DNA from: Ginglymostoma cirratum
Lineage: Eukaryota
Direction: 5' to 3'
Assembly: GCA_024137785.1 (NCBI GenBank)
Contig: JAHRHZ010000065.1
Span: 19,765,350-19,827,853 of the forward strand
DNA length: 62,504 nt
The notes beneath the pieces are model-generated. The model was not told where the DNA came from, made no database searches, and worked only from the letters and a program-made list of their open reading frames with translations. The position numbers and the translations under genes are program-made. This document shows positions 3,001 through 62,480 of the stretch, piece after piece (the first letter of the stretch is position 1; each line of letters opens with the position of its first letter).

Positions 3001-3578
3001 AACATGAACCTTGCTGAAAAATGATTCAGGCTGCTGAAGCTTTTTGTCGTGCACTCTTCAGAACAAAGCAAGAATGTCAAATTACAACAATGACAACAAT
3101 TTAAACCAGAGGAGAGAAAGGTGCTAATTTGTCTGGGATACTAACTCTGATTGGTTGAGGCCAGAAGGAACTATAGGCTCTCAAATAAAACAACAAGATC
3201 TGGAGATGCTGGAGATCTGAAACAAAAACAGAGATAGCTTGAGAAACTCAGCACGTCTGGTAGCATCTGTGGAGAGAAAGCAGAGTTAATGCTTCGAGTC
3301 TGTTGATTCTTCATCGTGTATAGTCTCGCAATGTCCCCAGGTACTTAAAAAAGAGTGCAAAACCTGAATATTTTCCTTTTATTTGGAGAGAACGGGTCCC
3401 TGTATCTGTAGAGGAGCGGTGTAGTAATGTTCCAGGATCACCAATCTAGAGGCCAAGGCTACAGCTCAGCACAATAGATGCTGGAGTATGAAATACATTA
3501 ATAAATCTGAAATTAAAAGATCATCTTAGCCACACTGACCATAAGTGTCCAAATATATGAACATTTGAATATACATAC

Positions 3579-3798
3579 TGTCGTGATTGTAATACAGTCA
3601 GCTAGATGGACCTCATAGAATGTGAGTTCCGTGATTGTAGCTGTTAACTTGGTCCAGTCAGGGAGCCCTAGCTGACAGATATAAACAGGAGTGTCAGGGA
3701 TTCTGTTCACCCTGAGGGCTGGCTCTGAGGAAGCTGGTTCAGTGCCAAGTACTATACATGTGTAAATAAAGGATAACAGCCTCTGTGGAGTTATTTAA
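3579..3798 (+). mobile_element. Solo LTR of the same Gypsy family
   Basis: Shares gtgattgtaa, cagggagccc..gctgacagata, ggagtgtcag, ctggctctga and gcctctgtggagttatttaa with the LTRs. Flanked by CATAC / CCTAC (TSD with 1 mismatch). Confidence 0.85.
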
Positions 3799-3829
3799 CC
3801 TACTAACCTACAAATTAGGAACCTAGGTT

Positions 3830-5215
3830 GTCATTTGGGCCTCTTAAACCCTCTTTACCGTTCCATAGGGTCATAGCTGATACGTTTTTGGATTTTCAAA
3901 TTCCACATTCCAATCTACCCCTGATAACCTTTGATTCCCTTGCCTAATAAGAATCTGTCTAACTCAACCTTAAAATATTCAATTAACTCCCTTCTGCAAT
4001 CTTCTGAGGCAGAGTTCAAAAGGAACGCTTAGAGGAAACAACATTCTCCTCACCTCAGTCTTAAGAGGGAAGTCTTTAATGTTAAGTCTTTAAGTGCCCC
4101 TTAGTTCTGGATATACCCAAACAGGAAACATCCTTCCATATCAACCTGTTCAAGAGCTTTTAGGATCTTATAAGCTTTGATCAATCACCCCTCACTCTTT
4201 TAAACTCAATGGAAGCAAGCTCAGGCTTTCTAACCTATGGTCATAACACTCTCACTCAAGATATCTGTCTAATAAACTTCCTCTAAACAACCTCCATTTT
4301 ATTTGCATCTTTCCATAAATAAGAAGGCCAAAACTGCACCTAGTATTTGCAATGTGGTCTCACCAGGCCCTTTATAATTGGAGCATAACACCTTTACTTT
4401 TATGATCAATTCCTCTTGTAAAAGAGGACAACATTCTCTGTGCCTTCTTAATTGTTTGTGACACCTGCATACTAACATTTTGTCCCTCATGCATATATCC
4501 CTTTTAGCCTTTCCTATTCATGTACTTATCCAAATGTCTTTTAAATGTTGCAACGGTACCCACATCCATCAGTTCCTCTAGAAGTTCATTCTATGCACGA
4601 CCACTCTCTGTGTAAAAAAGTTGCCCCTCATGTCCTTTTTAAGGCTTTGTCCTCTCAGTTTAAAAATATGCCCCCTAGTTTTGAACCTCCCCCCACCCTA
4701 GGGAAAAGACCCTTTTCGTTCACATTATCTATGGCCCTCATGATTTTATAGACCTCAGTAAGGTTACCCATCAACCTCTTATGCTCCAGTGAAAAAAGTC
4801 CGAGCCTATCCAGCCTACATTTATAACTGAAACCCTCCAAAAAACAACGCTCCACCATCACCCTCTGTTTCCTTCCATCAAACCAATTTTGTATCCAATT
4901 GGCAAGCTCACCCTGAATCCAATGTGATCTATCTCGACTAATTAGTCCACCATGCCTTGTCAAATGCTTTACTAAAGTCCAAGTAAATATTGTCTACTGT
5001 TCTGCCCTTATCAATCCTTTTGGTTACTTTCTCAAAAAACTCAATCAGGTTTGAGAGATACAATTTCCCATGCATAAAGCCACTCTGACTGTCCCTAATC
5101 AGTCTTGGCCTCTCCAAATGCATGTGAATCCTATCTTTCAAAATCACCTCCAAACACTTACCCACGACCGATGTCAGACTCACAGGTCTATAGATCCCAG
5201 GCTTCTCCTTATTCA
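3830..5215 (-). mobile_element. Nested CR1 LINE fragments
   Basis: Minus-strand ORFs with PGIYRPVSLTSVVGK, YLDFSKAFDK and LGLFSLEHKRLMGNLTEVYKIM. Confidence 0.88.
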
Positions 5216-5220
5216 ACCTT

Positions 5221-5886
5221 TCCAAGGTGGCCTTCAGGATACAAAACGATGCAGAATCCCTGGGCAGAAATTGATTGCCAAGATCCATACCCATGAAGAC
5301 AGCCTCAACCATGATCTTGGATCCATGTTGCGCTACATGTGACCCCACCACACTGTTCTGTATCTGAAAAATCTCCCTGACTGTCCTGTTTTGACACCTT
5401 CACTTTGATAATTTGTTATGATTTCTCTACCTTAATTAGTTTGTACAGTTTGGGATTACTGGTTACTTTGGTTAGACCCTCCGCATGTGACTCTTATACC
5501 TACCATGTTATTCCATCCATTTGGTTTGTTTTCAGCATGGTCTTATTTTTAATTTTTTGTAATTATCTCTCTGCTTCAATTAAATGGACTATAAGTCATC
5601 CCTTCACTTGTTATTCAGCCATCGAAACTATACTCACAGCATCTGACACTTTTGATCACCTGCAAAGACTTATTATTCAGCCTGTCGACACTCCACTCAC
5701 ACCATTTGTATGATATTTTGATCTCTGCCTGTAAATTATGTGCCAGTGTGCCCCTCTTCACTTCACCTGTTGAAGGAGCAGTGCTTCAAAAGCTTGTAAT
5801 TTCAAACAAACCTGTTGGACTATAACCTGGTGCCATGTAACTTCTGGCCTTGTCCTCCCCAGTCCAGCATGGACACCTCCACATCA
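5221..5886 (+). mobile_element. Penelope-like element 3' fragment (family C)
   Basis: GIY-YIG C-terminal-like QGGLQDTKRCRIPGQKLIAKIHTHEDSLNHDLG; ends in the pseudo-LTR shared with 10575-10700, 21185-21368 and 33493-33652; decayed hammerhead at 5764-5798. Confidence 0.7.
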
Positions 5887-5889
5887 ATG

Positions 5890-6080
5890 CTGATCTTCTT
5901 AATGTTGATCTTGTCTAGCACACATCCTGTGTGGTGTAACCTGTATGCCTTACTCTGTCCAAGTTTTTTGTTCACCCTATAATTTGTGTGTCCTCACTTA
6001 CTATGAACCGCCTGTATTGTTCACAAAGAAAGATTTTCACTGTACCTAGGTAGATGTGACAATAAATCAAATCAAATCTT
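5890..6080 (+). mobile_element. Non-LTR 3' tail, Rex1/Babar-like
   Basis: ttttcactgtac..tgtgacaataaatcaaatcaaatc terminal tandem repeat. Confidence 0.45.
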
Positions 6081-6508
6081 AGTGGATTCAACTTACATCT
6101 TGCTCCAAAAATCTTCCATGTTGGACTCCACACACCAACATCTCAAGAACACTCGTGGGTACCAGCCACACACACCCAAGTTCTACAGACATTGTCAACC
6201 AACTTGTGTCAGCCTTGATAAACACACACAGTAGATTTCCAATCCACTTACAGTATGTTTATGAACTTCAATGCTACACCTCACTGCACCAGCAGCTATC
6301 ATTGTTAATGCTGCAGGAAGGATATATTATGTTCAGGGAGACACACTCAACTCATGGACTGCACCATACTGCGTCTCCAGGCTTTACACTTGCTGTCATA
6401 GTACTCACTCACTCTCACCCTGCCTGGATGCTCATAACATCCCTGCCATGCATCGCCTTGTCTTGTGAGATTTGCCTCCTCAGCCAGAGATACCAAGACC
6501 ATATTATT

Positions 6509-6742
6509 CCGAAATAAAAACCAAAGGAACTGCGGATGCTGTTAATCATGAACAAAACAAAGTTGCTGGAAATGCTCAGCAGGTCTGGTAGCATCTGTGG
6601 AGGGAAAAACAGAGTTAACATTTCGGGTCCGGTGACCTTTCCTCAGAACTCAAGGGTCACTGGACCCGAAACGTTAACTCTGTTTCTCCCTTCACAGATG
6701 CTGCCAGACCTGCTGAGCTTTTCCAGCAACTTTGTTTTTGTT
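6509..6742. repeat. Fold-back (inverted) PLE family B insertion
   Basis: Arms of about 95 bp are reverse-complementary; 11-bp TSD accatattatt (6498-6508, 6743-6753). Confidence 0.88.
6612..6651 (-). ncRNA. Minimal hammerhead motif (family B)
   Basis: Reverse complement gagtt-CTGAGGA-a-aggtc accg gaccc-GAAAT-GTT-aactc; 5-bp stem I, mismatch at the base of stem II. Confidence 0.55.
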
Positions 6743-9700
6743 ACCATATTATTACTGTCTTGCCATGTCATTTTGCACAGACACAAAGCTAGGAAGCTTG
6801 TTGTGGTTGTCAGCAGGTCTCATTTATGTCAAGGTCTGATAACCTTTGCTCAAAACATCATGACACATTAAGTCAAAGGCAGCATCCAACTCCAGTCCAG
6901 GTTCTGCTTGAGGCATTCAGAGTCAGGATCACCTGTTTGCAAGGAGTGAAAAGTTGAATGAATGGCAGCAAACTATCCATTTTCTGTCCTATTGTGGTCT
7001 ATTTTGCTCCTGGACTGAGAGAGAGGCAGATATTATCAATAATAAAAGTGAGCGGCACAACTATTACTGGTGGTGCAAGCAGGGACGATTCCTGAGTGAA
7101 CGGGTAGGCCAAGCAGGGGGTGTACAGGATGAGCAGTGTTGCAGATTGGGCTCAGGGTGAGTGGAAGGATTTTGCAGGCATTAGAGAGAGTGATAGCACA
7201 CTAGCCTTGATGGGAGGTGAGTCCATTAGCGGGGACAGAGTAAATGTGTAGGAGCAGAAAGAAGATGCTAGCACTCACTTTGGTAAAGTGGAGAAGGACA
7301 TTAGCATTTTTCCTGCAGGGCTACAACTACTCTAACCTAGGTAGCAACCTGGGACCAGGTTGGCATCATTTGATGTCATGGCCTCCGCTGCTATTCTTGG
7401 TGGAAGAGGAAGTCCCACCTATGTCCACTGATCCAGCTGGAACTCTGGGACCATGCCCACACTGTGTGGCAAAGATTTCCCTGTTCTGCCAATATTGGGT
7501 CAAATGTCAGAAACTGCACAGGGCAGCTGACATTACTTGTCTTGGTCCACAATATATTTTAAACATGGTGTTGGCACAAGGGACTTTTCAACTAATCAGC
7601 ACCCTTTTGTTCTCCAGTAGAAATTGTTGCAAGTGGTTGAAACTTTACATTCTTGTGTTAATCCTGATCAATGCAAGACAAAGAGCTTCAACAACATCTC
7701 TTTTCAGCAAAATCCAATCTTCTCCCAAAGTCATGAAGGACTTCCATTATGAATGGTCAACATAGAAATGATTTTCAGCTTCCTTTTTTCACATGCCCAA
7801 TCTGCACTCTTTCTGAAATATATTGTTCCAAAGTTTGCATGTCCCACTCAAACTTCAGCGAACTCATATTTTGACCACAGAGAGAAAACAAAAGAATCGC
7901 AATGTTTTTTTTCCGAAAGGAGAAATGGTTGAGTGGTAACTTGTATTTCTCAGAACAATTCAGCTTTCTGTGAGGCCCTTACTTCTGTGTGGTCCTGTGT
8001 GTGCCTTCAGACCAGGCTTTGGAAAGTGAAGTGTACATCCTGAAGGGCAGAATAAAGCCAGGGTTGAAAGACTGACAGCGAAAAGAAAAGATCTGAAATT
8101 CTGATCGCTCTAAGGACTGTATCCAGTTTTGCCATTATACCTCTGGGGATTTTATCTCTGTTAACTATGTGGAAAAGCATCACAAACCTTTACTTTAAAA
8201 ATAAATTCGCAATGTCATTATGTGCAATCTGCGCTGAAAATTTACTGATATTTGTAGTATTTCGAACAGGCATTTAAAAAAAAGACAGATTTGGTATTGA
8301 AATACATTTGAATGATTACCACCCTGGAAAGTCTATTTTCTACAATCTGATCGAGTAAAATTGCCTAGGCATGAAGTCTCTATAGAGAAGACGATAATCA
8401 CACCGAGGTAGGAAACTTTTTTTAAAATAATCTACCAGAAGGACAAAACTTGCAATTATATCACCACATTCAGAACCTCATGATGTCCCAATGCACTCTA
8501 CAACCAATTAAATACATTTTTAAAGTGCAGTTACTGTTGTAATAAGCACTGAGGACAATTGCAGAAAATAAGCTTTTTCAAAAAGTGAAGTGATACTGAT
8601 CAGATTAGTTGTTTTTTTTAAGTGATGTTGTTTAAGGGATAGATATTGGTCAGGGTCCCATGGAGAGCTCTGTTCTCCTCTTTGGAACTGTACAATGATA
8701 TCTTCTACCTCAAACCAAGTGGACAGATAGGACCTCAGTCTAACACATGATCTGAAAGAGTTGAATATCTTCTTTTCATAACGTAAAGGAAGCAGCATTG
8801 CATTGATTTGTCAAGATACATTATGTAGTTGTAAAGGCTTCCTTTGATTGTAAGGAAATGTATTAAATGTGTTCTAACAGATTTACAATTTCACTCAAAT
8901 TACCAAACCAAAGTAACCTTCTTACAAAAATTTACAAAGTTGCTACGCACTGCATTTGGAGGAATGCTTGCTAACGTGGTACAATTAATGAAAATTAAAC
9001 TCAAGGAAATGTTTACAAAAAATTGGTATTAGTAACAAGGGAGAAATACATGGAATCTGATAAAGGGGTCCATTTCTGTGAAAACAATGTAACAGCAGAT
9101 ACCTTATCATGAACAATGTGGCAACCTAAAAGTTAGTTTTAAAATCTAATCTCCAGCTCACTGGAGAGAATAATGTGGTTTAAAAACTTCTTCAAATAAA
9201 TTACCTTCATACAGAAGTCACAACTTGCTACAGCTTTTTCTCTGCAATTTGCATGAGCTAACTCAACTAGCCATTGATTTGAGGGTGTGAAAGAATCTTA
9301 CAAGGTGATTTTAGCAACAACTTAAATTTCAGTTTGTGCTATTATACTCACCCAGTGTGGGCACCAATGAAAGTAAAGCAAAACAAACGTTGTCAGTGGG
9401 AATAAAAATCCTTTCCTTCTAGAATTCAGTGTCTGGTTTTTCCTTTCTAGGAGAATGATTCAAAGTCCTTTGACCATGCTGGCACTGATCCTTTGTTCCA
9501 GCCCGTATTGCAGAAAGCTCCTTAATGATTAACTTCTAAATATATTTATCCAGAATTCTCACATGGTAATTATTAAGTTGCTGATTATTGGAAGGCCTTC
9601 TGCTGCTAACACAATTGTGTTTTAAGAACAAACGTCCTCTTCATCCGATACACAATGATTTGTCATTAAAACAATGGGCAGAAAGTTTAACCATAACTCT

Positions 9701-10411: not shown

Positions 10412-11525
10412 CTCAATCACTTTGTCTTTTGTTATGGTTACCAGCACCCAGTCCACATTCATCAGAAATTTCTCTTTTCATCAATTTTGATGGGGGAAGA
10501 TATGGATGTTTGAAAGAGTGGTGTAATATTGTTAGAAAGTATTAATGAAACTTCTTTGCTGTGTTTAGCATTGCAAAAAATCACATGACAACAGATTATA
10601 GTCCAACAGGTTTATTTGAAAACACAAACTTTCACAGCTCAGCTCCTTCCTCAGGAGTAGTGTGTGAGAGGCGGTATAAGACACAGAATTTATAAGCAGA
10701 AAGCATTACCCTGAGAGATTTCTTGCCTCTTCAACCATGGCTTGATAAACAATTCCTGATAGCCCATCATCAGAATGTCATATCAATGCCAAGATGCGAA
10801 CATCCAAGAAAATGATGGCATGTGTGCAGTTGTCAGCGTTTATGCTGCTCTCTGATTTCCTTAGAAATTTGCACTGCTGCATCAAAAATCTGATGAACAC
10901 TGGGATAAGTTCATGGTCATATTCACGCGGGCAGAAATTGTGAATTTCTCTTATTTATGCTAGTTTTCTTGCCACTTCTAATTATGTCAAAATTGTAACA
11001 CAGAAGAAGGGTCTAGACCCGAAACATCAGCCTTCCTGCTCCTCTGATGCTGCTTGGCCTGCTGTGTTCATCCAGCTCCACACCTTGTTATCCAGGATCT
11101 TGTTTGACTGATTGAGACATAAGTTATTCTCAGTGCATTGAGAATGTTAAAAAGTTATAGCCTCCTCTTTAACTATTGAAATTGCACACATTGATTCATT
11201 TCTGTTTCTCAGCTGCTGAGATCCTAGATTTTGCAAAGCAAAGTTCTGTGATTGTCTAAGAATAATACTTTTAAGATATCATTCTCCCATTGCATTCAGA
11301 AGGGAAAGGGATTACATTGGGTTTTTACAATCCTTTATTCGGCATTATTATTTTCTGGTTGAAAAAGAAGAGGAGTACAAGGTAGAAAAAATGGTACATA
11401 ACCTGCCATGGCTGGAGTCTGCTCCAAATTTTATGATTACTATCTAACTGGGACACAGCTCTGAATGCTGGTAAAGGTAATGGTTTTGGGTAATGCAACC
11501 AGAGCCTAGTTCACGGATATCACAG

Positions 11526-11924
11526 CATCCCAAAACCAGCCCAGCTCATCTCCACCTCCCTAACCTGTTTTCCCTCTCACCTATCCCCTCCTCCCACCTC
11601 AAGCCCCACCCCCATCTCCTATCTACTAACCTCATCCCGCCCCCTTGACCTGTCCGTCCTCCCTGGTCTGACCTATCTCCTCCCTACCCCCCCACCTACA
11701 CTCACCTTTACTGGCTCCATCTCCGCTTCTTCGACTTGTCTGCCTCCTCTCCACGTATCCTCTCCTCTATCCATCTTCTATCCGCCTCCCCCTCTCTCCC
11801 TATTTATTTCAGAACCCTCTTCCCCTCCCCCTTTTCTGACGAAGGGTCTCGGCCCGAAATGTCAAGTTTTCCTGCTCCTATGATGCTGCTTGGCCTGCTG
11901 TGTTCATCCAGCCCCACGCCTTGT
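11526..11924 (+). mobile_element. Penelope-like family A 3' UTR/pseudo-LTR fragment
   Basis: Nearly identical to 16278-16620; flanked by tatcacag (11518-11525, 11925-11932). Confidence 0.85.
11833..11866 (+). ncRNA. Minimal hammerhead motif (family A)
   Basis: ttt-CTGACGA-a-gggt ctcg gccc-GAAAT-GTC-aag. Confidence 0.6.
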
Positions 11925-14094
11925 TATCACAGATAACACAGATGGCTTAGCTGTGCAGAAGGTAGATTCATAAAGTAATTGTAACCAGGAATTCTAGAGT
12001 TAGGGAAACAGACAGCTGTTTCTGCTGCAGTAGATATGACTCCAGTATGGTATCTGCCTCCCTGGTGCCAGGGTCCAGCATGTCATTGAGTGGCTACAGA
12101 GCTTGCTGAAGTGGGAGTGTAAATAGCGAGAGGTTGTGTTTCCTAGAAAGAGGAATGCAATCGTGCAAGCAGAGGTTAGGGAGCTAGGAAATAGATTAAT
12201 AAGCAATACCTAACCATTTGGTGATGGAAAACAACATTCTGTTGTGTGTAAAAGCACTTCCAGATAGCTTGAAAAAGAAGGAGATCAAAGGAATGTTGGA
12301 ATCCCTCTATCACGGTTGTCTGCAACTGCTCAATAAACCAGGTGATCATGATTTCAACAGCAATATTGCCATGGTAACAATTGAAACAATGGTGAATGAA
12401 GGTTGTAATGTTTCTATGTCTTGTATAACTATGGTTTCAAGTGAAAATGCTACAGGTGTTCTCATTTATGTTATGGCAGACTGTGGCGCATGCAACAGCT
12501 GCTATATGACCTCATTACAAACACTGGCATTGAACTTCTACATATTATTCAGATCATCACCACGTATTTCTGCTGAGTGCCTTTCAGTCGTAAAACATTT
12601 CAGGTTTCCAGCCACATGTTCAGTGATACATTGTCATACCTGTAACACCCTTTTCAATATATGAGAATAATGCTCTCCATCAAATATCTGCTCACTTTTC
12701 TTCAGAACCAGTTAACCAGCGTGTTTTTGCTCCTATGATGCTGCTTGACCTGCTGTGTTCATCCAGCCCCATGCTTGTTAACCAGCGTGTGTATTGTTTT
12801 CTTTTTGGAATTTCTTCTTTGAACTTCCAATGGAGGCACTGTAACAAAATTGCATATTATTTTACATTTATATCAGCTAAATGGCCTGTCAATAAATTGT
12901 GAAATATTAAAGGATCATTGCTATCAGTGCATCATAATTGTTTCCTAGCTCTTGTTATTACTGTATCCCTTTACAAACTGCAGTTTAGACACATTTCATG
13001 TTTTAGATCCTTTAGTGGATGCACAATAGCAATCTTCATTGCCTCAAGTGTACCTATGTCCATCACTGATACTCATCATGCTTTGTCCTTTTTCTCTTTT
13101 AAAAATCATTTCTGATTCTCATGTTTTGTTGCTACGGTAATTGAATGAGTAATTAATATGAATAATTGAACCTGATTTACATGTAGAAACAAGAGCATGT
13201 TCAAGAGCCTAATAAGAGTGACAAATTTCTTATGAAAGAAAGAGTAATGGAAACATTCCTGGGACTAAAAGCTGACAAATCTCTTTACTGCCAAAATCCC
13301 AGGCCACCAAAAGAAGGAAATGCAAGCAAAGTGGTTGCAAAGTGATTATGATCTTCCAAAATTACCAAGAGTCAACAATGCTGTGAATGGATTGGAAGGC
13401 AGCGGCTGTGAGATTTTTACTTCACAAGTTGACCTGATACAATTCGGTGATAGGTCTTTATTGACAAATCAACGTAATGTGGTATATTATGGCAGTGGTT
13501 TAGAACTTTGTTTGCTTATTAACTACTCAGTCACTGGATAGAATACTCTGTAATGTCCTATTAGCCCCCTTGTCTTTGAGTAAGCAAATGTTAGCTTCCA
13601 GACAGCAATCATATTAACCTCCATAAACCCAATGATTGAGTCACAGACTTTTGTCTTTTATGTCTCAAAATGACAGTCACCCCCAATCATCTCTATCGTG
13701 ATTAATTTAAACCTTGAAGGGAGGTGGTGGTGGTGAAGTGGTATTACCATGGGACTAATAACTGAGGGGCCCAGACTAATTATCTGTGAACATGGGTTCA
13801 ATTCCCCCTTTAGCAGCTGGTGTTATTTAACTTATGAAGACAATAAATAGGAGAAGCTGTTAATAGATGAAAAATAAACACATAGGTGATGATTGTGTGT
13901 AACAGCATTTCTGGATTATAAAAAAACAGAAAAAGTATACAGGAGCAGATACAGGCTGTGGGGGCCCTCAACCCTGCTCTGTCATCCAATAGGATCTTGG
14001 ATGATGTGTTTGCTTTATAAATTCCATATTCCCAGATACTCCTGATAATCCTTTGATGCAATCATCTCCATTGCGAATAATTTAAATTTAGAGA

Positions 14095-14455: not shown

Positions 14456-14459
14456 AAAA

Positions 14460-15644: not shown

Positions 15645-16620
15645 AGAGACAGTAGGGACTGCTGATACTGGAGAATCTGAGATAACAAGATGTAGAGCTG
15701 GATGAACACAGCAGGCCAAGCAGCATCAGAGGAGCAGGAAAGCTGATGTTTCAGGTCTAGACCCTTCCTTTCCCCCCAAAAAAACAGAATCGCCTTCCCC
15801 TCCCCCCCAAAACAATCTGACCCCACTACCAAAGACATTTTTCCCTCCCTACCCTTACCTGCTTTCCGGGGGGACCATTCTCTCCATGACACCCTTGTCC
15901 GCTCCACGCTCCCCACCAGCCCCATTACCCCCGGCACTTTTCCCTGCAACTGCAGGACGTGCTACACCTGTCCCTACACCTCTCCCCTCACCCCCATCCC
16001 AGGCCCCAAGAAGACCTTCCACATCAAACAGATGTTCACCTGCACATCTGCTAATGTGGTATACTGTATCCGTTGTTCCCTGTACCTTCCAGTCGCGAAC
16101 CATTTCAACTCCCCCTCCAACTCCTTGGACGACATGTCCATCCTGGGCCACCTGCAGTGACACAATGATGCCACTCGAAGGTTGCAGGAACAGCACCTCA
16201 TATTCTGCTTGGGAACCTTGCAGCCCAATGGTATCAATGTGGACTTCACAAGCTTCAAAATCTCCCCTCCCCCTACCGCATCCCAAAACCAGCCCAGCTC
16301 GTCCCCGCCTCCCTAACCTGTCCTTCCTCCCACCTAGCCACTCCTCCCACCTCAAGCCCCACCCCCATCTCCTACCTACTAGCCTCATCATGCCTCCTTG
16401 ACCTGTCTGTCCTCCCTGGGCTGACCTATCCCCTCCCTAACTCCCCATCTACACTCACCTTTACTGGTTCCAACCCCGCCTCTTTGACCTGTCTGTCTCC
16501 TCTCCACCTATCTTCTCCTTTATCCATCTTCTATCCGCCTCCCCCTCTCTTCCTATTTCTTTCAGAATCCCCTTCCCCGCCCCATTTCTGAAGAAGGGTC
16601 TGATGAAAACATCAGCTTCC
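15645..16620 (+). mobile_element. Penelope-like element (family A) 3' fragment with inverted terminal copy
   Basis: TFHIKQMFTCTSANVVYCIRCS...PVANHFNS...EQHLIFCLGTLQPNGINVDF (GIY-YIG domain, YIG segment deleted). Inverted pseudo-LTR at 15647-15770. Flanked by ttccctttta (15635-15644, 16617-16626). Confidence 0.85.
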
Positions 16621-16849
16621 CTTTTATGAAACCATTTTGACTCCTCCCAATTGCCTCAGCTTTTTTTTCACTTCAATTATTAAGTGTGAACATAACATAA
16701 TGAATTAGGTACTTGGGGAAAATGTCATGTCTGTCTAAAACTTTATAAGACACTGTTTTTCAAAGTCAATTAACTTTTTCTGTAAACAAATAAGCAATTT
16801 TTTTTAAATAACTATTTGACTGTCCAGTTCAAAGTAATCAAGTAATCAA

Positions 16850-17320: not shown

Positions 17321-17389
17321 AATCACATGATACACTTATACTTGGAATTTTAAATGGTAACTGATAAGACATGACATGACAGAACATCA

Positions 17390-17424
17390 TTTCTGATGAA
17401 GGGTCTAGGCCTGAAACATCAAGC
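17390..17424 (+). ncRNA. Minimal hammerhead motif, CpG-decayed (family A)
   Basis: ttt-CTGATGA-a-gggtctaggcct-GAAAC-ATC-aag. Insert 17387-17518 is flanked by cagaaca. Confidence 0.5.
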
Positions 17425-17624
17425 TTTCCTGCTCCTATGATGCTGCTTGGCCTCCTGTGTTCATCCAGCCCCATGCTTGTTATCTCGGATTCTCCAGCAT
17501 CTGCAGTACCTTTTATCTCAGAACAGGTTGCTACACAGGTTAACAGTTCCAGGGATGACAGGAGCATATTAGTATAATGGAGTATTGGTCAAAGGACAGA
17601 AAATGGAACATTGGAAATAATCAG

Positions 17625-18130
17625 AGATAAAAGGTACTGCAGATGCTGGAGAATCCGAGATAACAANNNNNNNNNNNNNNNNNNNNNNNNNNNNNNNNNN
17701 NNNNNNNNNNNNNNNNNNNNNNNNNNNNNNNNNNNNNNNNNNNNNNNNNNNNNNNNNNNNNNNNNNNNNNNNNNNNNNNNNNNNNNNNNNNNNNNNNNNN
17801 NNNNNNNNNNNNNNNNNNNNNNNNNNNNNNNNNNNNNNNNNNNNNNNNNNNNNNNNNNNNNNNNNNNNNNNNNNNNNNNNNNNNNNNNNNNNNNNNNNNN
17901 NNNNNNNNNNNNNNNNNNNNNNNNNNNNNNNNNNNNNNNNNNNNNNNNNNNNNNNNNNNNNNNNNNNNNNNNNNNNNNNNNNNNNNNNNNNNNNNNNNNN
18001 NNNNNNNNNNNNNNNNNNNNNNNNNNNNNNNNNNNNNNNNNNNNNNNNNNNNNNNNNNNNNNNNNNAAAGTTTTCCTGCTCCTATGATGCTGCTTGACCT
18101 GCTGTGTTCATCCAGCCCCATGCTTGTTAT
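17625..18130. repeat. Fold-back PLE family A insertion spanning the assembly gap
   Basis: Antisense arm before the Ns and sense arm after; 16-bp TSD cattggaaataatcag (17609-17624, 18131-18146). Confidence 0.8.
17667..18066. other. Assembly gap (400 N)
   Basis: Run of N. Confidence 0.99.
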
Positions 18131-18339
18131 CATTGGAAATAATCAGTCAGGTTATGGTTGTAACTAGTACAATGCTGTTAAGATCAGTGCCAGGAACTCA
18201 GCTAGTTACAATCTATGTTAATGACTTAGATGAAAGGATCAAGTATAACCCATCCAAGTCTGCTGCTGATACAAATTTAGGGGAAAATGTTTTCTGTGGT
18301 AAGAAAACAATGTGTCTTTTTCTCTGTGTGTTTATAGGA

Positions 18340-19364: not shown

Positions 19365-21872
19365 GGTGAACAATATTCTCTTAGGAAATAAGGCAGGGCC
19401 AGTGACTGAAGTGTTAGTGGGGGAACACTTTGGGACTAGTGATCATAATACTATTAGTTTTAAAACAGCAATGGAAAAGAAAAAGTCTTCCAAAGAAGTT
19501 AAAGTTCTTAAATGTAGTACAGCAAATTTTAAGGGTATGAAATATGAACTTTGAAAAGTTGATTGGAGTCGACTGTTTGCAGGCAAAGAGATGACTGACA
19601 AATGGGAGCCCTTCAAAAGTGTGATAACCAAGAGTTCAGAAGCATTATGTTCCTGTTAGAGTGAAAGGCAAAGCTGGTAAAGTTAGGGAACAATGCATGA
19701 ATAAAGACATTGAAGTTCTAGTCAAGAATAAACAAGAATCACATATTAAATATACATACCTCGGATCAATTGAATTTCTTAAAGAGTATAACGTGTGTAG
19801 GGACAGTCTTAAGAAGGAAATCAGGAAGACCAAGAGGAGAGATGAGGTAGCCTTGGCACATCAGGTTAAAAATGATCCAAAAAGATTCTAGAAATACATT
19901 AGGTGCTGGAGAGCAACTAGAGAGAGAGCAGGACCACTTAAAGGTTAACAAGGTTGTCTTTGTGTTGAACCTCAAGAGGTGGGAGATATTAAATGAATAT
20001 GTTGCATCAGTTTTTACTGTTGAGCAAGAAATACAGACTACATAACTCAGAGAAATAAATACTGATGTTTTGAAAACAGTTCATGATGCAGAAGAGGAAG
20101 TGCTGGAGGTCTTAGAAAATATAAAGGTGGATGAATCTCTGGGACCTGATCAAGTGTATCTTACGACTTTGTACGAAGTTATGGAGGAAATTGTGAGGCC
20201 CGTGTCAGAAATATTTGGTTTGTCTATAAACAGGGGTGAAATACTGGACGACTGGAGGGTAGCTAATGTTTTTGCAATTCTTTAAGAAAGTCTGTAAGAA
20301 GAAACCTGGAAACTATAGATCTGTGAGTCTGATATCAATGGTGGGTAGGTTGTTGGAGGTGATTCTGAAAGATGGGATGTACATGTATTTGGAGAGGCAA
20401 GGAATGATTAGGAACAGTCGGTATGGTTTTGTGCAAGGAAAATCATGTTTCACAAGCTTGATTGAGTTTCTTTAATGAAGTAACCAAAATTATCGATGAG
20501 GGCTGAGCAGTAGACATTGTTGACTTGGACTTTAATAAAGCTTTGACAAGGCTCTGCATGGTAGACTAATTAGTAAAGTTAGATCACATGGAATTTAATG
20601 TGAGCTTGCCAATTGGATACAAAATTGTATGGTACTTTATGGTAGGAGACAAAGTGTGGTGGTGGAAGGTTGTTTTTCAGACTGGAGGCCTGTGACCACT
20701 GGTGTTCCACAGGTACCGGTACTGGATCCACTTTTGTTTGTCATTTATATAAGTGATTTGGATGAGAATATAGGAGGCATGGTGAGTAATTTTGCAGATG
20801 GCACAAAAATTAGTGGTATAGCAGACAGCGAAGGTTATCTAAGATTACAAAGGGATCTCAATCCCCAGTGGGCTGAGGTGTGGCAGATGGAGTTTAATTG
20901 GATAAATGTGAGGTATTGCATGTTGGTGAAACAATCAAGAGCAGGACTTATACAATTAATGGTGGAGCCCTGGGTAATTTTGTAAAACCTAAAGGTTCAG
21001 GTACATAATTCTTTGAAATTTGTGTCACAAATAAGGTGGTTAAGAAGGCGTTTGGCACGCTTGCATTCGTTGCTCAAACCTTTGAGTATAGGATTGGGAC
21101 ATTTTGTTGATGCTGTAGAAGACTTTGGTGAAGCCTCTTCTGGAGAACTGTGTGCAGTTTTGGTCACCCTGTTGTAGGAAGGATGTGGAGGTGCCGGTGT
21201 TGGACGCTGGTGGATGAAGTCAGAAGTCACACGACACTCTCTTAATCCAACAGGTTTATTTGAAATTGCAAGCTTTTGGAGGGCTCTCCTTCATCAAGTG
21301 AAGGAGCAGCACTCCAAAAGCTTGTAATTTCAAACAAACCTGGTGATGTGTGACTTCTGACTTTGTTTTAGGAAGGATATTATTCAACTGGAGAGAGTTC
21401 AGAAATTTTACCAGGATGTTGCCACAAATTGAGGGGTTGAGATATCAAAATAGCCTGGAAAGACTGGGACTGTTTTCATGGAGTATATGTGGTTGAGGGA
21501 TAACTTTATTGAGGTTTACAAAATCATTAGGGGCATAGGTAAGGTGAATGACAAGGGTCTTTTCCTTAGCATGGGAGAGTTCAAAACTGGAGGGCATATT
21601 TTTAAGGTGAATGGAGATTTAAAATGTACATGAGGGACAACCCTTTTATGAAAAAGTGTTTAGTGTGTGGAATGAACCGCCAGGGAACATGATGGATGCA
21701 GGTACAGTTACAACGTTTAACAGACGTTTGGATAAGTTCATGAATAGGAAAGGTTGGAGGGATATGGACCAAGTGCAGGCAGTTGGGATTCATTCAGCTT
21801 GGGAACATGGTCAGCATGGACTAGTTGGACCCAAGGGTCTGTTTCCATACCATATGACTCCATGACTCTAAG
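19365..21872 (+). mobile_element. CR1-clade LINE, 5'-truncated ORF2 plus 3' end, interrupted by a PLE hairpin
   Basis: End of APE domain (GEHFGTSDHNTISF), PGNYRSVSL, GFVQGKSC, GVPQ..LLFVIYISDLD, FADGTK; 3' tail atgactccatgactcta. Confidence 0.92.
21185..21368. repeat. Fold-back PLE family C insertion inside CR1
   Basis: aagtcagaagtcacac..ccttca / tgaagg..gtgtgacttctgactt; 10-bp TSD taggaaggat (21175-21184, 21369-21378). Confidence 0.88.
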
Positions 21873-23360: not shown

Positions 23361-23368
23361 AGGCCGAG

Positions 23369-36993: not shown

Positions 36994-37032
36994 GAGTTCT
37001 GAGGAAGGGTCACTGGACCTGAAACGTTAACT
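36994..37032 (+). ncRNA. Minimal type-I hammerhead ribozyme motif (family B)
   Basis: agtt-CTGAGGA-a-gggtc actg gacct-GAAAC-GTT-aact; 4-bp stem I. The insert is flanked by tgcactaagt / tgcaccaagt. Confidence 0.68.
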
Positions 37033-37624
37033 GTTTTCTCCTTCACAGATGCTGCCAGACTTGCTGAGCTTTTCCAGCAACTTTGTTTTTGCACCAAGTA
37101 CTTTACTGTACATGCCAACAGCTCCTTATATCAGCGTCTGAACTGGTAGCTGAGTTTGAGATTGAGCAGTGGTGTTTATCACCCACTGTCATCATGTTCT
37201 TCCACTTGTTTCTCCCACAATACTACCTGGCCATTTTCAATTCTTTGTGATCTGAAAGGATAAAGGTAAAAGCTTAAGGTGGTGATGAAGTGAGGTGATG
37301 GGAGTGAAAGGTATATGCTTACTATGTCTGTAGCATCCAAATTAGCAAAGATTGTGAAATGGAAATGAGATATAAGAAAGAGGGATTAGATATCTGAATA
37401 CCCCAGTCTTTCTTTTGTTTCGGCTCAACAACTGGCCAGATTCTCAGTAGTGTTAAGCTCCCTGATGGTGAGTACATCTCCTCCACGGGGATGAGGAAAT
37501 GAGTCTGTTCCTGCCAGTCAGCACTCAGTGCCTCCAGTTAAGAGAGAAATATTAGTACTGAGTATGGTGTCATTTATTTGGCTGGTACAGTTGACATCAC
37601 TGAATAATTAACGCTTTCTTCTTA

Positions 37625-38220: not shown

Positions 38221-40819
38221 TAGATTAGATTAGCTCCACTCTAGCGGGATCCTTCACGGTTATGGGTGAAGTGTTGCAGTGAGGAAGAGTAACCAGTGAG
38301 ATCACATTCCTGCTTGACCTCAGTTTGCATTCATATTCTGTCTATTGTGGGTTTGTTGAAAGGATTATGACTTGTATGTAGTTGTGCAGCTGGCAGTGTG
38401 TGAAAACTGTGAGTGTGAGACTTGTAGCAGCGCAAAATGTGTGAGGCTGAGGTGAAGTTATGAATGTTAGGTATGATCCTAAGTGATAGAGCGTGATGGT
38501 AGGTGGTATGACTTGTGCAAATGTAATGCTAAATGCTAGCTGTGCAGTTGGCAGGATATGTCATATGTGTGGACCAATTTTGACCACTCACTTTAGGTCA
38601 TTGTCGTTCCTGTGACACTGCATCCAGATCCTTGAGATGTGACGCTTTGCAATAGCTGCTACAATATTTTTCTTCTTTCCTGGGATATGGGCAACAATGG
38701 AAAGACCAGCATTTGTTGTTCATCCTTAATTGCCTTAACCTGAATGGCTGGCTCAGCCATTTGAAATCAAGCAGATTGCTGGGACCTGGAGTCACCTGCA
38801 GTCCAGATCGGATTAGGAAGACAGGTTTCCTTCCTTACCGTGAACCAGATGGGTTTTTAACCAATAATCATTGTTAGTTTCATAGTTTTCATTCCTGTGA
38901 TTTATATTAATTGAATTAAAATTCCACCAGCTGCAAGGTGGGATTTGAAACCCAGCCCCCAGGGTATTAGAGTTAATATTGTTCAGTTCTGAGAGAGAGT
39001 CAGACTGAAGTGGAAGGGTTAACTCTGTTTCTCTCTCCACAGATGCTGCCAAATTTGCTGAGTTTCTCCAGTCTTCTCTGTATTTGTTTCAGTTTTCTAG
39101 CATCCTTGGTGTCTTGCCTTTATTCCAGTGTTAGTCTGGAGTATAGATACAGGGATGTTACCACTTCACTACCATCTGTGGAATTTATCTGAAGGTCGTT
39201 CTGCCCTATCCCTCATCTGTGGCTTGTGCACAACTCTCCTCATCTTCGTTTCCTTGTGGATCACACCTCTTGTATTCTGGCATTCTGTCTTTTCCTAGGA
39301 CAGAATCTGTTGGGAAATAACTTGCAGCACCTGCCCAGTCATAATTCACCTCCTTTTCGAGCTTTACTTGAGAGTTAAATAGTGCAGGCTAGCTTTAACT
39401 GATGCTGGCCTCAGTTGATATTGGGCTCACTCCTGAGATGGGCAGCCACTGAACAATATGGTTAGCACTGGCTGCACTCTGCAGTCATGCAAATAGTTAA
39501 CGTGAAATTGGCATCTGCTTCCACTGGAATTAAACTGCACAGGTTAATCCAATATCTCCATCTCTTTGCCCAATTTGGAGATGGAGCTGCCAAATTAAGT
39601 CCCCTCTTAGCTTTTCAGCAATTTTCCATGTCTGTTTTGTGGACATTTAAGGTAGTTATTTTTCATTCCTTTCCCAGTTTTCATTACATGCATTGATGAT
39701 CATGGATATGATTACACTTTTACATAACGTGCTAGCTTAGAACCATATTTCATCAACAACAAAAGTTGCTACACCCTTTAGTCATCTGGCTTTACAGATA
39801 ACATTAGTACAGCCCCCATGATGCAAACACTGAACCTAGTAGTCCGTATTGGGAGAATCACTGAGTGTCCTGCAGCCCTTGCACGTTTATTCGCACAGTG
39901 CACTCTTTCTACTTTGACAGTTAATGATCTCCCTCAGACTCAATTCTTTTTATTACAACGTCAACCTTTGCTTCTCCCATCCCTAATATTTAAAACTCTC
40001 TCTCATGCTCCCCTCTCCTAGCATGTGCACCTTATATTTATTCTGATGGATATGATCAATTGGAATAAAAATATTCCTGACATAGTATCTAGTATTTAAT
40101 GGTATGTGGAGAAGGTCACTTCAGTCTTGTTTTCAGTCTTGTTTTTGGCCGTTCAGTAAAAGGGCTGATCCTTTAACTGCATTTTGGGATTTGTTTTGGT
40201 GGCTGTGGCTTTTTTTGGCTTACCAATCACATATATATGTCTGTACTTCATAATTTTGTTAACACGTCCAATCCTTAATGACTATCTTCCAAAAACTATA
40301 GTGCATAGTGAGGTTTGGGTATATCTAATCAACCTGTTGAGGTGAAACATATGTCATTTATGTACATTATTAGTATTTGTTTTCCAGGTTTGGATTTCGA
40401 ACTAGTGGCATATTGGTATTGGTCTATTTTTTTGTGAAGGGGTTTAAAAATTAGTTAGGTCAGTCTTTTGGGAAGTATGATTTTAATACTGTCTGTTCCT
40501 CCCGAATTGTTAAACAAAGTTAATTTATATTTTGGGGTTTTACTACAGCAGAGAATAAACATTGAAATAAATCAGCCTACTTTCAGATTTAGAATAATTA
40601 AGGATTGATTTTAGCTTAGAAAAACCCAGAGATTGTAAAGCTTTTGCAGATCTTGAAGGAGGTCTGACTGAAGTCAGATGCAAGTAGTTTCTCTCAGAAA
40701 TAGTAGATTGTTCAGAATAGTTAGGGATATAAGTTACCTCAGAGGAAAGTATTAGTCTATGAAACATTCAGACCGAGGAATACTTGCTTAGAAATCTGCA
40801 TTAGTTATCCAAAGCTAAG

Positions 40820-47919: not shown

Positions 47920-47955
47920 GAGAGGGAGAGAGAGAGAGAGAGACAGAGAGAGAGA
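47920..47955 (+). repeat. (GA)n microsatellite, imperfect
   Basis: Seen directly. Confidence 0.85.
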
Positions 47956-58030: not shown

Positions 58031-60318
58031 AGTAGGCCTTTGTCCTGTTTCAGTTTTATCTCAGTGGGAAAGACATGTAACAGCCTTTCCAACTGCTACA
58101 ATGGGGTAGTCTCCCTGCAGGTTGTTAGGGGAATGGAGGGGAGGGGAGCGTTGATTTGCCCCAATTTTGGGACATTCGGGTGCATAGGTGGGTCTTTGAG
58201 CAGTCCCTTACGTCAGTTCCGATTCAGCTGAGTTCTCACTTAGTATGGCACCCACCCTGCGATCACTCTGCGGAATAATGGCTGATTTTCCCATTACTCC
58301 TCACCTTTGGTGCTGCTATGGAGCCAAGACCCTGGCCCTCTAAAGTGACACTGAATGTCAAATTGGCTGCCAGCCTCTGGCCTTGAGTTGGGGGAGAGGG
58401 AAACACCACTTTTCCAGGACCTGATTGGCTAAGAGGCCTGTCTGATTGACACTTGATCCAGAGAGAGCTTTCTCATTGGTTGGGGCAGAGGTCAGTTACC
58501 CCTGAACCCATCCTGCCCTTACACTTGGTGCTTTAGCAAAACTGGACTGGGCTATAAAATTGATGTTAGTCACTTTTTAAGACTACTTCAGCAACACTTT
58601 CAGATTGTAATACTCTTTTTTTCTTACCTGAAAGTTTCTTCCTTCCCTCCAGGTTTCTGAAGATGCTAATTTCTCAAAAGGGCACAGTCCCAAAAGTGGC
58701 AACTGTCACTGTTATTTCACCCAATGTCGATGCCTGTGAAGGCTTTGCTAATTTTGTTCACAGTGTCTTGCAATGATTTAAAAAAAAGTACTATTTTATA
58801 TAATGCTCATTCCACAGAAGTTTCAAACCTTATTTTGAAAAAGCGAAATACTGGCTGCCTAGCAACCACAAAAAGAATCACATGACATTGAGTTTCGCAG
58901 TCTGACGCCACATTGTAACGTCTAAATATTCTTAGCATGCACAATCAGATGTGGAAATTGTTATTAATTCTTGCTGTGACCTTTACGATCTTCTTCAAGC
59001 TGCACTATCTATTTAAAATAAAGGGGCTCAATTGTCATAAAAGCACAACGTAATTTTCATGAGGGTGCCACTCTCAGAATCTTGCTAGCTGTAAATACAA
59101 AACCTTTGCATGAAAAGTTGTTCTAATTTAATCATGCAATACAGCAAAAAACGCTGCCACACCCAACGACAGGAATTAATGTACAAAAACACCCAAGCAT
59201 CCATTTCATGTGGATACACCAGGCAATGAAGAAAGGAGCTAATATTCATTAATTGTTGCACATTTAGCATCAATATATCTGACATGACCAGAAACTGACC
59301 CAGTGCTTTGGGTGCATGTTTGGCCAGCAAATATTTTGTTTGTATTTAACATTGATATCTCTCTGGTAGCCAGCACATCCTGTAAAAGAGGGGATATTTA
59401 AAAAAGAGAAAAAACAGTGCTTTGCTCAGCCTTAAGGATTTTCAGACTTTCCTGCTGCTTTATGTTCTAATCATTTCTCTGCAGCATTTCAGAAGTTGTG
59501 ATAACGATATTCTTTGAACTTAATCTCTTCCAGCTCCCCACAGAATGTACTGATAACTCAGCTTCTGTAACTATGTTTTTTTTAAATTCATTCACGGAAT
59601 GTGGGCATCACTGGCTAGACCAGCATTTATGCCCATCCCTAATTGCTCTGAGGGCAGTCAGAAGTCACCCAGATTGCTGTGGGTCTGCAGTCACAGGTAG
59701 GCCTTTCCTAAAGGACATCAGTGAACCAGATGGGTTTTTTTTCAATAATGGTTTCAAAGTCATCGTTAGACTGTTAATTCTAGATTTTTTTTATTGAATT
59801 CAAATTCCAGCACCTGCGATTATAGGGTTTGAACATGGGATTCCACAACATTACCTGGGTCTGTGGATTCGTAGTCCAGTGATAATATCACGTATTGTTT
59901 GTTGCAATATCTACAATATGGTGAATGTAAATTGTTTCACCATTGAGGCAGGATAGAGTTCCAGTCAGTCATTAGAGCTCCATACGTTCTGGAAGGCCCG
60001 GGGTTTATGATTGTTGTCAGTGAGTGAGTTGAAGCAATGTAATTGTAAGTGAATAGAACAAAGTGAAAGATTTGAGTTTTACATTTTTCAGAACTTTATG
60101 TTGGGTTAGTTGGATGACATGTAAAGCAGACAGACAATACACAGTCGCAGTCAAACTGATAAAGAGGCACTGCAGCTAATATCTGTTGCTCAGTAATGCC
60201 AGTTGCATAGGAAGCTGTGGACCAGTATTACATTTTATGAAATTAAAACCGAAATTGCTGGCAAAACTCAGCAGGTCTGGCAGCATCTGTGGGAAGAAAA
60301 CAGAGTTAATGTTTCGAT

Positions 60319-60514
60319 ATTAAAACAGGTCAATCCGATTCCCGGAGCAAGGCTTGAACTCACAACCTCATGATTCACAAACCAGAATACTACCACAGTT
60401 GACATTTTCGGTTTCAACATTAAAACAGGTCAATCCGATTCCTGGAGCAAGGTTTGAACTCACAACCTCATGATTCACAAACCAGAATACTACCACAGTT
60501 GACATTTTTGGTTT
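60319..60514 (+). repeat. Tandem duplication, 2 x about 100 bp
   Basis: attaaaacaggtcaatccgattc...gacatttt.ggtttc repeated, with 3 substitutions by eye. Confidence 0.92.
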
Positions 60515-60546
60515 CTGATGAAGGGTTTAGGCCCGAAACGTCAAGT
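60511..60546 (+). ncRNA. Minimal type-I hammerhead ribozyme motif, intact core (family A)
   Basis: gttt-CTGATGA-a-gggt ttag gccc-GAAAC-GTC-aagt: conserved core, stem II, ACGT palindromic stem III, short stem I. Confidence 0.7.
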
Positions 60547-61944
60547 TTTCCTGCTGCTATGATGCTGCTTGACCTGCTGTGTTCATCCAGCCCCATGCTT
60601 GTTATCTCGGATTCTCCAGCATCTGCAGTACCTTTTATCTCTTAATGTTTCGATAGCAGCTAGGTAAAGCTGATATTTATGCTGAAGATGAGGTTTGGGG
60701 GTTGAAGGCTGGAGGAGGACCGAGAGGTGAGAGGATAAGTGGAGATGGAACTCAGAAAATGAGAGAGGTATATAAGGGACAGGCATTGGTAAACAAGGGA
60801 ATTATTTATAATAGGCCAAGACAGAAGAGAAGCTGAGTAAGTGATAATGAGAGCTGAGGATAGCAGAGAATGGGTAGTCTGTGTTGAAAGCCAAACATGT
60901 ATTGTGATAACAGGCCTGAGAGCAGTTGCAAATGGATTGGCTGTGCTAAAAGCAAGCCATGTCATAATGGGACTGGAGGTGAGGTGGGTAAAAATCATGG
61001 AAGGATGGAATCAGGATCTAAAGTTATTGAACTCAACGTTGAATGACAGTGGCTGCAGGTCCTCAAGCGGAAAAATGAGGTGCTGTTCTTTGAGCTGGCA
61101 CCGAAACTCGTTGGAACACAGGGCACACTGCTCCTCTCCTCCTCCATTCCCAACTCCCCCTCACACCCCCTCACAGCCCCATGGCTTCTTACTATGCATT
61201 TGCAAAATGTGTAATACCTGTCTGTTTATCTCCTCCCTTCTCACTATCTAAGGCCCTAGACACGCATCCCAGATGAAGCAGCAATTTGCCTACACTTTCC
61301 TCAATCCCTCCTTTATTCACTGCTTACATTGTGGTCACCTCTGCGTTGGGAGATGAAGTGCAGACTGGGCGACCACTTTGTAAAATACCTACATCCTGTG
61401 TGCAAAAAAATGACTTTGAGCTTCCAGTTGCCTACCACTTCAACACGCCGTCATGTTCCCATGCTAATATTTCTGCCGCAGGCCTGCTGCAGTGTTTCAA
61501 CTAGCCTCAGTGCAAGCTCGAAGAACGGCATCTCCTTTTCTACTTGGGGACCCTACAGCCTCTGGGACTTAACATGGATAGCAATAATTTTAGAGTCTGA
61601 TTCCATCCGTCCATGTTTTTCACCCACACCATCCCAGTCTTGTTATGACATGAGTTGCTTTTAGCATAGCCAACCCACTTTCATCCAGTCTCCGGCCTGT
61701 CATCTCATTACATGGTTTGCTTTCAGCACAGACTACCCATTCTCTGCCACCCACTGCTCTCGTTATCACTTAGTCAGTTTCTCTTCTATTCTAGCCTGCC
61801 ATATATAATCCCCTGGTCTACCTATCCCTCTCAATCTCTCTGGGGCTCCATCTCTACCTATCTGCTCATTCCCATCCCTACAGCACAACCACCGTCACCA
61901 CCTCCTGTTCAACATAAATACCAGCTTTTCCTGGCTGCTGGTTT

Positions 61945-61980
61945 GTTCTGATGATGAGTAACTGGTCTCGAAACATTAAC
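61945..61980 (+). ncRNA. Minimal hammerhead motif, decayed (family B)
   Basis: gtt-CTGATGA-t-gag..ctc-GAAAC-ATT-aac. Confidence 0.45.
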
Positions 61981-62159
61981 TCTGCTTTCTTCCCACAGAC
62001 ATTCCCAAACCTGCTGAGTTTCGCTAGCAATTTCTATTTTTATTTCAGATCTACAGCACACACAGTTCTTTGTTTTATTTTACTACGTTTTCAGAATCAA
62101 CCAGCATGAAAAGCAAAGCAGGAACTGTGCAGAATGTGAGTGCTTTGGTGTGAGTATTT

Positions 62160-62480
62160 CTAGAATTGTGGAAAAGCTCAGCATTTCTGGCAGCATCTGT
62201 GGAGAGAAATCATAGTTAATGTTTTGCAATGGGACACTGAGGAAGGGTCATCGACCCAAAATGTTAACTCTGATTTCTCTTCACAGATGCTGCCAGACCT
62301 GCTGAGATTTTCCAGCAATTTCTATTTTTGTCTGCAGAGTTTGTTGCTCATAAGGCCTCAAAATGACAATGAAAGCAGAATGTGAGATAACAAGGTGTAG
62401 AGCTGGATGAACACAGCAGGCCAAGCAGCATCAGAGGAGCAGGAAGGCTGATGTTTTGGGCCTAGACCCTTCTTCAGAAA
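62160..62480. repeat. Fold-back family B insertion (62160-62332) plus antisense family A end (62384-62480)
   Basis: Inverted arms; both hammerhead cores have GAAA mutated to AAAA. Confidence 0.75.

What the first reader, a model, noticed from the sequence alone, without database searches (positions are those of the whole stretch)
3180..62480. Three distinct Penelope-like families, each ending in a minimal hammerhead ribozyme
Seen: three families with otherwise different ends share the layout stemI-CUGANGA-A-stemII-GAAA-palindrome-UH-stemI'. Family A is ttt CTGAtGA a gggtctaggccc GAAAC GTC aag. Family B is gagtt CTGAgGA a gggtcactggaccc GAAAC GTT aactc. Family C is cac CTGAnGA a ggagc nnn gctcc GAAAG CTT gtg (consensus reconstructed from decayed copies). 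Stems I and II covary between families while the core is fixed, which argues for real structure. About 20 fragments occur in 62 kb. Established: PLE pseudo-LTRs carry minimal type-I hammerheads thought to cleave as dimers, and an extra nucleotide between A9 and G10.1 is tolerated in natural hammerheads. Inference: these are the self-processing ends of shark PLEs.
Basis: partly seen in the sequence, partly recalled or inferred. Interest (0 to 1): 0.7.

Follow-up and report, generated by a model that had tools for sequence, protein, structure and literature searches.

The report
Hammerhead-headed Neptune retroelement stubs in shark
The window is peppered with mostly broken pieces of three Penelope-type jumping genes, each carrying a tiny hammerhead RNA motif of a kind known since 2014; the motif sits at the front of the pieces, and most were likely copied from RNA that the ribozyme had not cut.

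Summary
Real, but a known class. The window holds 24 fragments (8 A, 11 B, 5 C); 7 keep all 11 core bases and 3 pass a strict descriptor (shuffles: mean 0.01). All three motifs lie downstream of Neptune-type Penelope-like (PLE) coding sequence; A has an open 850-aa RT/GIY-YIG frame elsewhere in the genome. The core is fixed across five A/B lineages (11 of 11 columns against 27 of 54 in the tail), while single copies decay neutrally. Corrections: A and B share their tail; the hammerhead begins the pieces, with 55-105 nt behind the cut. Of 124 A/B copies, 45 start in the five bases before the core, at an initiator-like site about 30 nt behind a TATA-like box; 3 start at the cut. Genome-wide, 91% of young A tails run through the cut site. 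So the templates were likely capped and uncut, in line with the anole PLE in vitro. A cut-site footprint proposed in earlier scan notes shows here only as a weak step, not a peak. The scan has reported this many times, in this genome and others.

The parts
3191..3315 (-). old B-type leader copy, 5' core bases lost (8 of 11)
5762..5884 (+). C copy with upstream 3' UTR running on at least 198 nt; 9 of 11 core bases
6518..6750 (.). head-to-head B pair: 6651-6518 (-) with all 11 core bases, 6652-6750 (+) starting inside the hammerhead
10555..10658 (-). C copy, 11 of 11 core bases but stem II damaged; TATA-like box upstream
11003..11109 (+). short A copy starting two bases into the core
11522..11943 (+). 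A 3' UTR followed by an intact hammerhead (core from 11836, predicted cut after 11863) and tail
12728..12786 (+). A tail without hammerhead
15650..15768 (-). A leader copy, inverted arm in front of the coding fragment
15813..16631 (+). decayed A endonuclease fragment (72% to P0002), 3' UTR and a damaged hammerhead core at 16588
17390..17667 (.). A leader copy (+, 11 of 11 core bases, starts at the initiator-like site) and an opposed tail piece 17626-17667
18068..18141 (+). A tail beside a run of N; start not readable
21183..21370 (.). head-to-head C pair inside a CR1-type fragment, 10-bp flanking duplication
29504..29707 (.). old head-to-head B pair, decayed
33494..33617 (-). C leader copy, 10 of 11 core bases
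36994..37099 (+). B leader copy with intact hammerhead (core from 36999, predicted cut after 37028)
38985..39110 (+). old B-type leader copy, 8 of 11 core bases
60243..60316 (-). B tail with half a hammerhead
60512..60641 (+). young A leader copy, intact hammerhead (core from 60515, predicted cut after 60542), long 3' end
60778..62069 (.). old B-type element end: inverted arm 60778-61119, endonuclease fragment 61183-61597 (+), 3' UTR, hammerhead and tail 61945-62069 (+)
62169..62332 (.). head-to-head B pair
62372..62480 (-). A leader copy, 10 of 11 core bases

Best explanation
The fragments are pieces of three Neptune-type Penelope-like retrotransposon families whose pseudo-LTR carries a minimal type I hammerhead that likely forms the first 32-36 bases of the element's RNA, and most inserted copies were likely made from RNA that had not been cut. 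Shown: motif, conservation across lineages, link to coding sequence, two 3' ends about 35 nt apart, pile-up of 5' ends just before the core. [quoted passage not shown] The ribozyme is kept by selection in the master elements but would be slow, needing a second RNA (palindromic helix III) or the element's protein; it would cut only a minority of RNAs or cut them off the copying path (for instance removing the cap-bearing head). Inserted copies are passive and decay.
For: A: open 850-aa frame with Pfam RVT_1 and GIY-YIG above their cut-offs and a CxxxxCxxC-type linker, followed by the A hammerhead; B and C downstream of endonuclease fragments 37-56% and 32-43% identical to A's. Core 11 of 11 invariant across five A/B lineages against 27 of 54 tail columns, p 0.002; position 7 takes all four bases; compensatory changes in stem II pair 2 (B1 against B2), stem I pair 4 (C1 against C2) and the helix III pair (A/B against C). 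Within lineages core and tail decay alike (p 0.10-0.75). 5' ends: 73 of 165 usable copies start from 8 nt before the predicted +1 to 2 nt into the core, 6 within 3 nt of the cut. Genome counts: 88,116 of 97,004 young A tails extend 8 nt across the cut, but 36,176 of 53,289 A and 2,098 of 9,506 B heads extend 8 nt beyond +1. Three of 7 readable ORF-bearing heads start at +1 and one is a tandem junction. TATA-like box at -29 to -31 in all three families. The anole PLE primes internally, uses uncut RNA and cuts only with protein (PMC11167929).
Against: No direct mapping of the RNA start: a poly(A) run showed no pile-up of read starts at +1 or at the cut (library looks unstranded and is dominated by passengers, so uninformative). 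One ORF-bearing copy (L353) starts exactly at the cut, and breaks are about three times more frequent at the cut than one or two bases upstream (684 against 209 and 239). The five lineages are related, so p is optimistic. The upstream C-run of A is mutable, which inflates the drop at +1. In the 140-nt leaders of A and B the hammerhead fold has near-zero predicted probability. D. virilis Penelope uses a TATA-less internal promoter (PMC2377424), so the layout is not universal.
Confidence: 0.75

Rival explanations
1. Self-processing ends (first reader; Cervera and De la Pena model): the ribozyme cuts tandem transcripts into unit-length RNA, perhaps circularised, and this is the template.
For: Core kept across lineages; palindromic helix III words in all three families; step up of breaks at the cut; about 20 of 30 sampled copies lacking the base before the cut are junctions, not substitutions; L353. 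A ligated circle would also give copies that read across the cut.
Against: A circle or a cut RNA does not explain why 5' ends pile up at the first base of stem I behind a TATA-like box. Only 1,990 of 97,004 tails lack the base before the cut. The step does not fall back after the cut (508 and 610 at the next two positions, partly one-base deletions and variants). Several junctions there are fold-backs through the palindrome or through stem I complementarity.
Confidence: 0.15
2. The 100-140-bp pieces, B above all, are an independent SINE-like element that is transcribed and copied on its own.
For: 28 of 29 usable tail-selected B copies are short; flanking duplications are visible by eye in several.
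Against: 22% of B heads continue into a shared 3' UTR, with endonuclease sequence upstream in the long copies inspected; short copies lack the TATA-like box; they have the same two 3' ends as long copies.
Confidence: 0.06
3. The 5' pile-up is a stop of reverse transcriptase at RNA structure or bound protein, not the RNA's end.
For: 38 of 165 copies end inside the hammerhead, so the region does disturb copying.
Against: The peak lies after the whole hammerhead has been copied, and coincides with an initiator-like site at fixed distance from a TATA-like box in three families with different sequences.
Confidence: 0.04

Closest known systems
Minimal hammerheads (min-HHR) of metazoan PLE pseudo-LTRs, including fish Xena, Poseidon and Neptune (Cervera and De la Pena 2014, PMC4209133; parts 1-2 of 4 read)
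   Same: Type I layout, no real helix III, palindromic 15.2-16.2, extra base between A9 and G10.1, G10.1-C11.1 pair, short helix I, several families per genome, mostly single truncated copies, pairs on opposite strands.
   Different: Helix II is 4-5 bp (7-8 bp in the schistosome examples); no shark is named in the parts read; copy numbers here are far higher (tens of thousands of exact matches against 4,000-9,000 motifs in coelacanth and frog).
Poseidon of Anolis carolinensis (PAc; Frangieh 2024, PMC11167929; parts 1-2 of 4 read)
   Same: Hammerhead in the pseudo-LTR; two 3' ends 30-40 nt apart; uncut RNA as the main template.
   Different: PAc is Poseidon clade and its ORF starts inside the hammerhead; in A the long frame opens about 135 nt after +1, behind the tail.
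Neptune clade of endonuclease-bearing PLEs (PMC8557442, passages; PMC3846280, passages)
   Same: RT then zinc-finger-like linker then GIY-YIG; partial tandems, inverted 5' arms, optional tail; TATA and initiator-like motifs were already noted in a rotifer pseudo-LTR.
   Different: No tree against reference clades was built, so Neptune rests on the linker motif, which Nematis shares.
Non-LTR retrozymes (PMC7229834, passages; bioRxiv 10.64898/2026.07.22.740005, parts 1-2 of 5)
   Same: Type I hammerhead, proposed PLE origin, reported in one chondrichthyan genome.
   Different: Retrozymes are head-to-tail arrays; the window's pieces are single or head-to-head and belong to coding elements.

Membership tests
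min-HHR of PLEs | Core CUGANGA, GAAA, UH with stems I and II | tested here: met
   3 window copies and 14 in 448 kb pass a strict descriptor, shuffles about 0
min-HHR of PLEs | Extra base after A9, G10.1-C11.1, palindromic 15.2-16.2 | tested here: met
   all lineage majorities
min-HHR of PLEs | Core conserved and stems covarying across families | tested here: met
   11 of 11 against 27 of 54 columns, three compensatory pairs; lineages are related
min-HHR of PLEs | Located in the pseudo-LTR of a PLE | tested here: met
   A: tandem junction L332 and ORF copies; B, C: behind endonuclease fragments
min-HHR of PLEs | Self-cleavage as dimer or with protein | not testable with these tools
   RNA reads showed no end pile-up; genomic break counts inconclusive
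EN+ PLE, Neptune clade | Single ORF with RT and C-terminal GIY-YIG | tested here: met
   family A, L317, 850 aa without stop; for B and C only decayed fragments were seen, and the C fragment alone gave no Pfam match
EN+ PLE, Neptune clade | CX2-5CxxC linker between RT and endonuclease | tested here: met
   A residues 699-707; similar in B (L313, L227) and C (L076) fragments
EN+ PLE, Neptune clade | Optional 30-40-nt tail, inverted 5' arms | tested here: met
   two 3' end clusters in each family; 8 of 24 window and 39 of 129 sample fragments in adjacent head-to-head pairs
EN+ PLE, Neptune clade | RT phylogeny groups with Neptune references | not tested
   no reference set at hand
Non-LTR retrozyme | Head-to-tail tandem units each with a hammerhead, no coding partner in cis | tested here: not met
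   window copies are single or head-to-head; the rest of the genome was not screened for arrays

The most novel reading that the evidence does not exclude
In these Neptune families the hammerhead is the capped head of the mRNA, and roughly a million genomic stubs form a fossil record showing that retrotransposition uses uncut RNA, while about 1% of copies, including one ORF-bearing element, come from RNA cut by the ribozyme in the germ line. The ribozyme would then be a switch that decaps or retires the element's RNA rather than a cutter of unit-length genomes.
Probability: 0.35. Interest if true: 0.55.

Novelty: new member of a known kind. Interest (0 to 1): 0.27.

Why it matters
The class has been in print since 2014, so the catch itself is not surprising. 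What PLE hammerheads do is still open (PMC8557442, PMC11167929). A very young family with near-identical open frames and about 10^5 countable copies gives in vivo statistics on where templates began, and names exact positions to test by cap mapping and by cyclic-phosphate sequencing.

Tried and rejected
Rfam scan: no hammerhead family matched; microRNA hits at 6553, 17478 and 21253 are the head-to-head pairs. No tRNA gene in the window. No RNA holder was listed as such by the run search; two raw RNA runs were laid: X22 covers the motifs deeply on both strands without start or end pile-ups, X23 gave 12 and 114 reads; uninformative on cleavage or start site. Folding: hammerhead-only stretches of B, C1 and C2 fold with stems I and II, A does not; whole leaders favour other folds in A, B and C2; free dimer folding did not give the helix III dimer. 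The first B search selected copies by a base that is not the lineage base, so its 30 loci showed no shared upstream sequence; corrected with tail-selected loci. Automatic search for flanking duplications found one in 13 window sites. A sharp cleavage footprint was looked for and not found; loci for the control position were not delivered, so only the cut position was inspected by eye (30 of 1,990). Rows dropped in the 5'-end tally: 71 of 236 (start beside N, or under 85% identity); some kept rows are two arms of one insertion, and one window row (62224) is misaligned. Literature: 'shark, Penelope, ribozyme' gave 2 irrelevant hits and 'hammerhead ribozyme, elasmobranch' none; supplements of PMC4209133, PMC11167929 and the 2026 preprint were not seen and may hold shark motifs or 5'-end plots.
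Full report
Observation. A regular-expression scan and profile searches confirm the motifs. Profiles built from 30 genomic copies per family find 24 fragments in the window, 8 A, 11 B and 5 C. Seven keep all 11 core bases and three pass a strict descriptor that also demands stems I and II and the 15.2-16.2 pair; 100 shuffles of the window gave a mean of 0.01. In 80 stretches of 10 kb taken across the genome (448,050 unmasked of 800,000 bases) the descriptor gave 14 hits and 20 shuffles none; the profiles gave 129 fragments, so the window is ordinary for this genome, and a rough extrapolation is about a million fragments.

What they belong to. Upstream of A lies a frame with RT motifs, a CxxxxCxxC-type linker and a GIY-YIG domain; L317 holds 850 codons without a stop and passes both Pfam cut-offs. 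Many copies are 97-100% identical to it, so A is young. Long B copies share a 3' UTR and carry endonuclease fragments 37-56% identical to A's; the window has one such end at 60778-62069, with an inverted arm. C lies 600-900 nt behind a more distant endonuclease fragment in L076 and L147. The linker points to the Neptune clade (PMC8557442, passages); no tree was built. Each family has two 3' ends about 35 nt apart, the PLE 'tail', and 8 of 24 window fragments sit in head-to-head pairs, both known PLE traits (PMC3846280, passages). A and B are homologous behind the hammerhead; C is not.

Is the structure selected? I clustered 378 non-redundant copies (216 A, 111 B, 51 C; central hits chosen by hammerhead patterns removed). 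Across five A/B lineages the 11 core columns are invariant, against 13 of 28 other hammerhead columns and 27 of 54 tail columns (p 0.002; lineages are related). Position 7 takes all four bases. Compensatory changes: stem II pair 2 between young and old B, stem I pair 4 between two C lineages, and the helix III pair between A/B and C. Stem I is weak, 2-4 pairs in A lineages. Within each lineage the core decays like the tail.

Where the hammerhead sits. Copies chosen by their tail, or at random, mostly begin at the 5' strand of stem I. Of 236 hits, 165 were usable: 37 run on upstream, 73 start from 8 nt before the predicted +1 to 2 nt into the core, 38 inside the hammerhead, 6 within 3 nt of the cut, 11 later. 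For A and B outside the window, 45 of 124 start in the five bases before the core and 3 in the five around the cut. Genome-wide, 91% of young A tails extend 8 nt across the cut, but only 68% of A heads and 22% of B heads extend 8 nt beyond +1. Of 30 loci holding the start of the A frame, 9 reach the leader: 3 begin at +1, 1 is a tandem junction, 1 begins at the cut, 2 begin later, 2 are unreadable. In long copies of all three families a TATA-like box lies 29-31 nt before an A in an initiator-like context (the initiator consensus is recalled). A similar pair of motifs was noted in a rotifer PLE (PMC3846280); D. virilis Penelope has a TATA-less internal promoter (PMC2377424, passages).

Mechanism. 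Inferred: the tandem arrangement puts the TATA-like box of one copy in front of the next; the RNA starts with the hammerhead; the protein primes internally at the tail sites, as shown for the anole element (PMC11167929, parts 1-2); priming on the leader yields run-off stubs. That paper also found that cleavage needs the protein, is not needed for insertion in vitro, and leaves no read ends in public RNA data. Cervera and De la Pena saw no monomer cleavage and weak dimer cleavage (PMC4209133, parts 1-2). The genomic record here fits: mostly uncut templates, ribozyme kept for a slow or conditional cut.

Evidence for some cutting. Prompted by earlier scan notes I counted breaks base by base. 1,990 of 97,004 A tails lack the base before the cut; of 30 inspected, about 10 are substitutions or a deletion in a whole hammerhead, 1 is unreadable, and the rest are junctions, several through the palindrome, stem I complementarity or target-site microhomology (by eye). 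In one variant, transversion-type breaks number 239, 209, 684, 508 and 610 for starts two before, one before, at, one after and two after the cut; the last two include one-base deletions and variants. This is a step, not a clean peak: inconclusive, with a ceiling near 2%. RNA reads did not help.

Known and new. The kind, its home in fish Neptune elements, and the dimer idea are in print. I found no paper on shark PLE hammerheads in two searches; a 2026 preprint reports retrozymes in one chondrichthyan (passages and parts 1-2), and unseen supplements may hold more. The scan has 156 notes on this theme in at least 17 genomes and 106 in this one, several with the same shared-start reading; my reading was recorded before I looked, and those notes are not independent support. 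Verdict: real, new members of a known kind, modest interest.

Noticed in passing
L148:3827 (-): A fourth minimal hammerhead type with a 7-bp stem II and U as the extra base; 5 exact matches of its core stretch in the genome.
   Followed up: partly
L353 (G000:C39, start of the A frame): An A copy that starts exactly at the predicted cut and has a frame open for at least 773 codons to the end of the locus.
   Followed up: partly
L332, L348, L355, L357: A copies with an intact head whose second hammerhead follows after only 1.6-2.1 kb, so they appear internally deleted.
   Followed up: no
family A stem II, e.g. window 11008-11019: Stem II with its loop is itself a perfect or near-perfect palindrome in A, which could give a second way to dimerise; the predicted dimer uses it.
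   Followed up: partly
window 60311-60510: Two 100-nt tandem units, 95% alike, wedged between a B tail and a young A copy; tRNA-like by eye, not called by ARAGORN.
   Followed up: no
window 41746-44200: Decayed LTR-retrotransposon-type coding stretch with an integrase zinc-binding match at 43603-43917; described only.
   Followed up: no
window 4500-5400, 16877-17227, 20295-21800, 53800-56700: CR1-type LINE fragments by their look; RVT_1 match at 4938-5399.
   Followed up: no
L098:1802-2761, L102:1922-2866: Single-exon rhodopsin-family receptor frames near A insertions.
   Followed up: no
B tail, e.g. window 37030-37050: A pyrimidine run, CAG and ATG behind the B hammerhead look like a splice acceptor or a start codon.
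   Followed up: no
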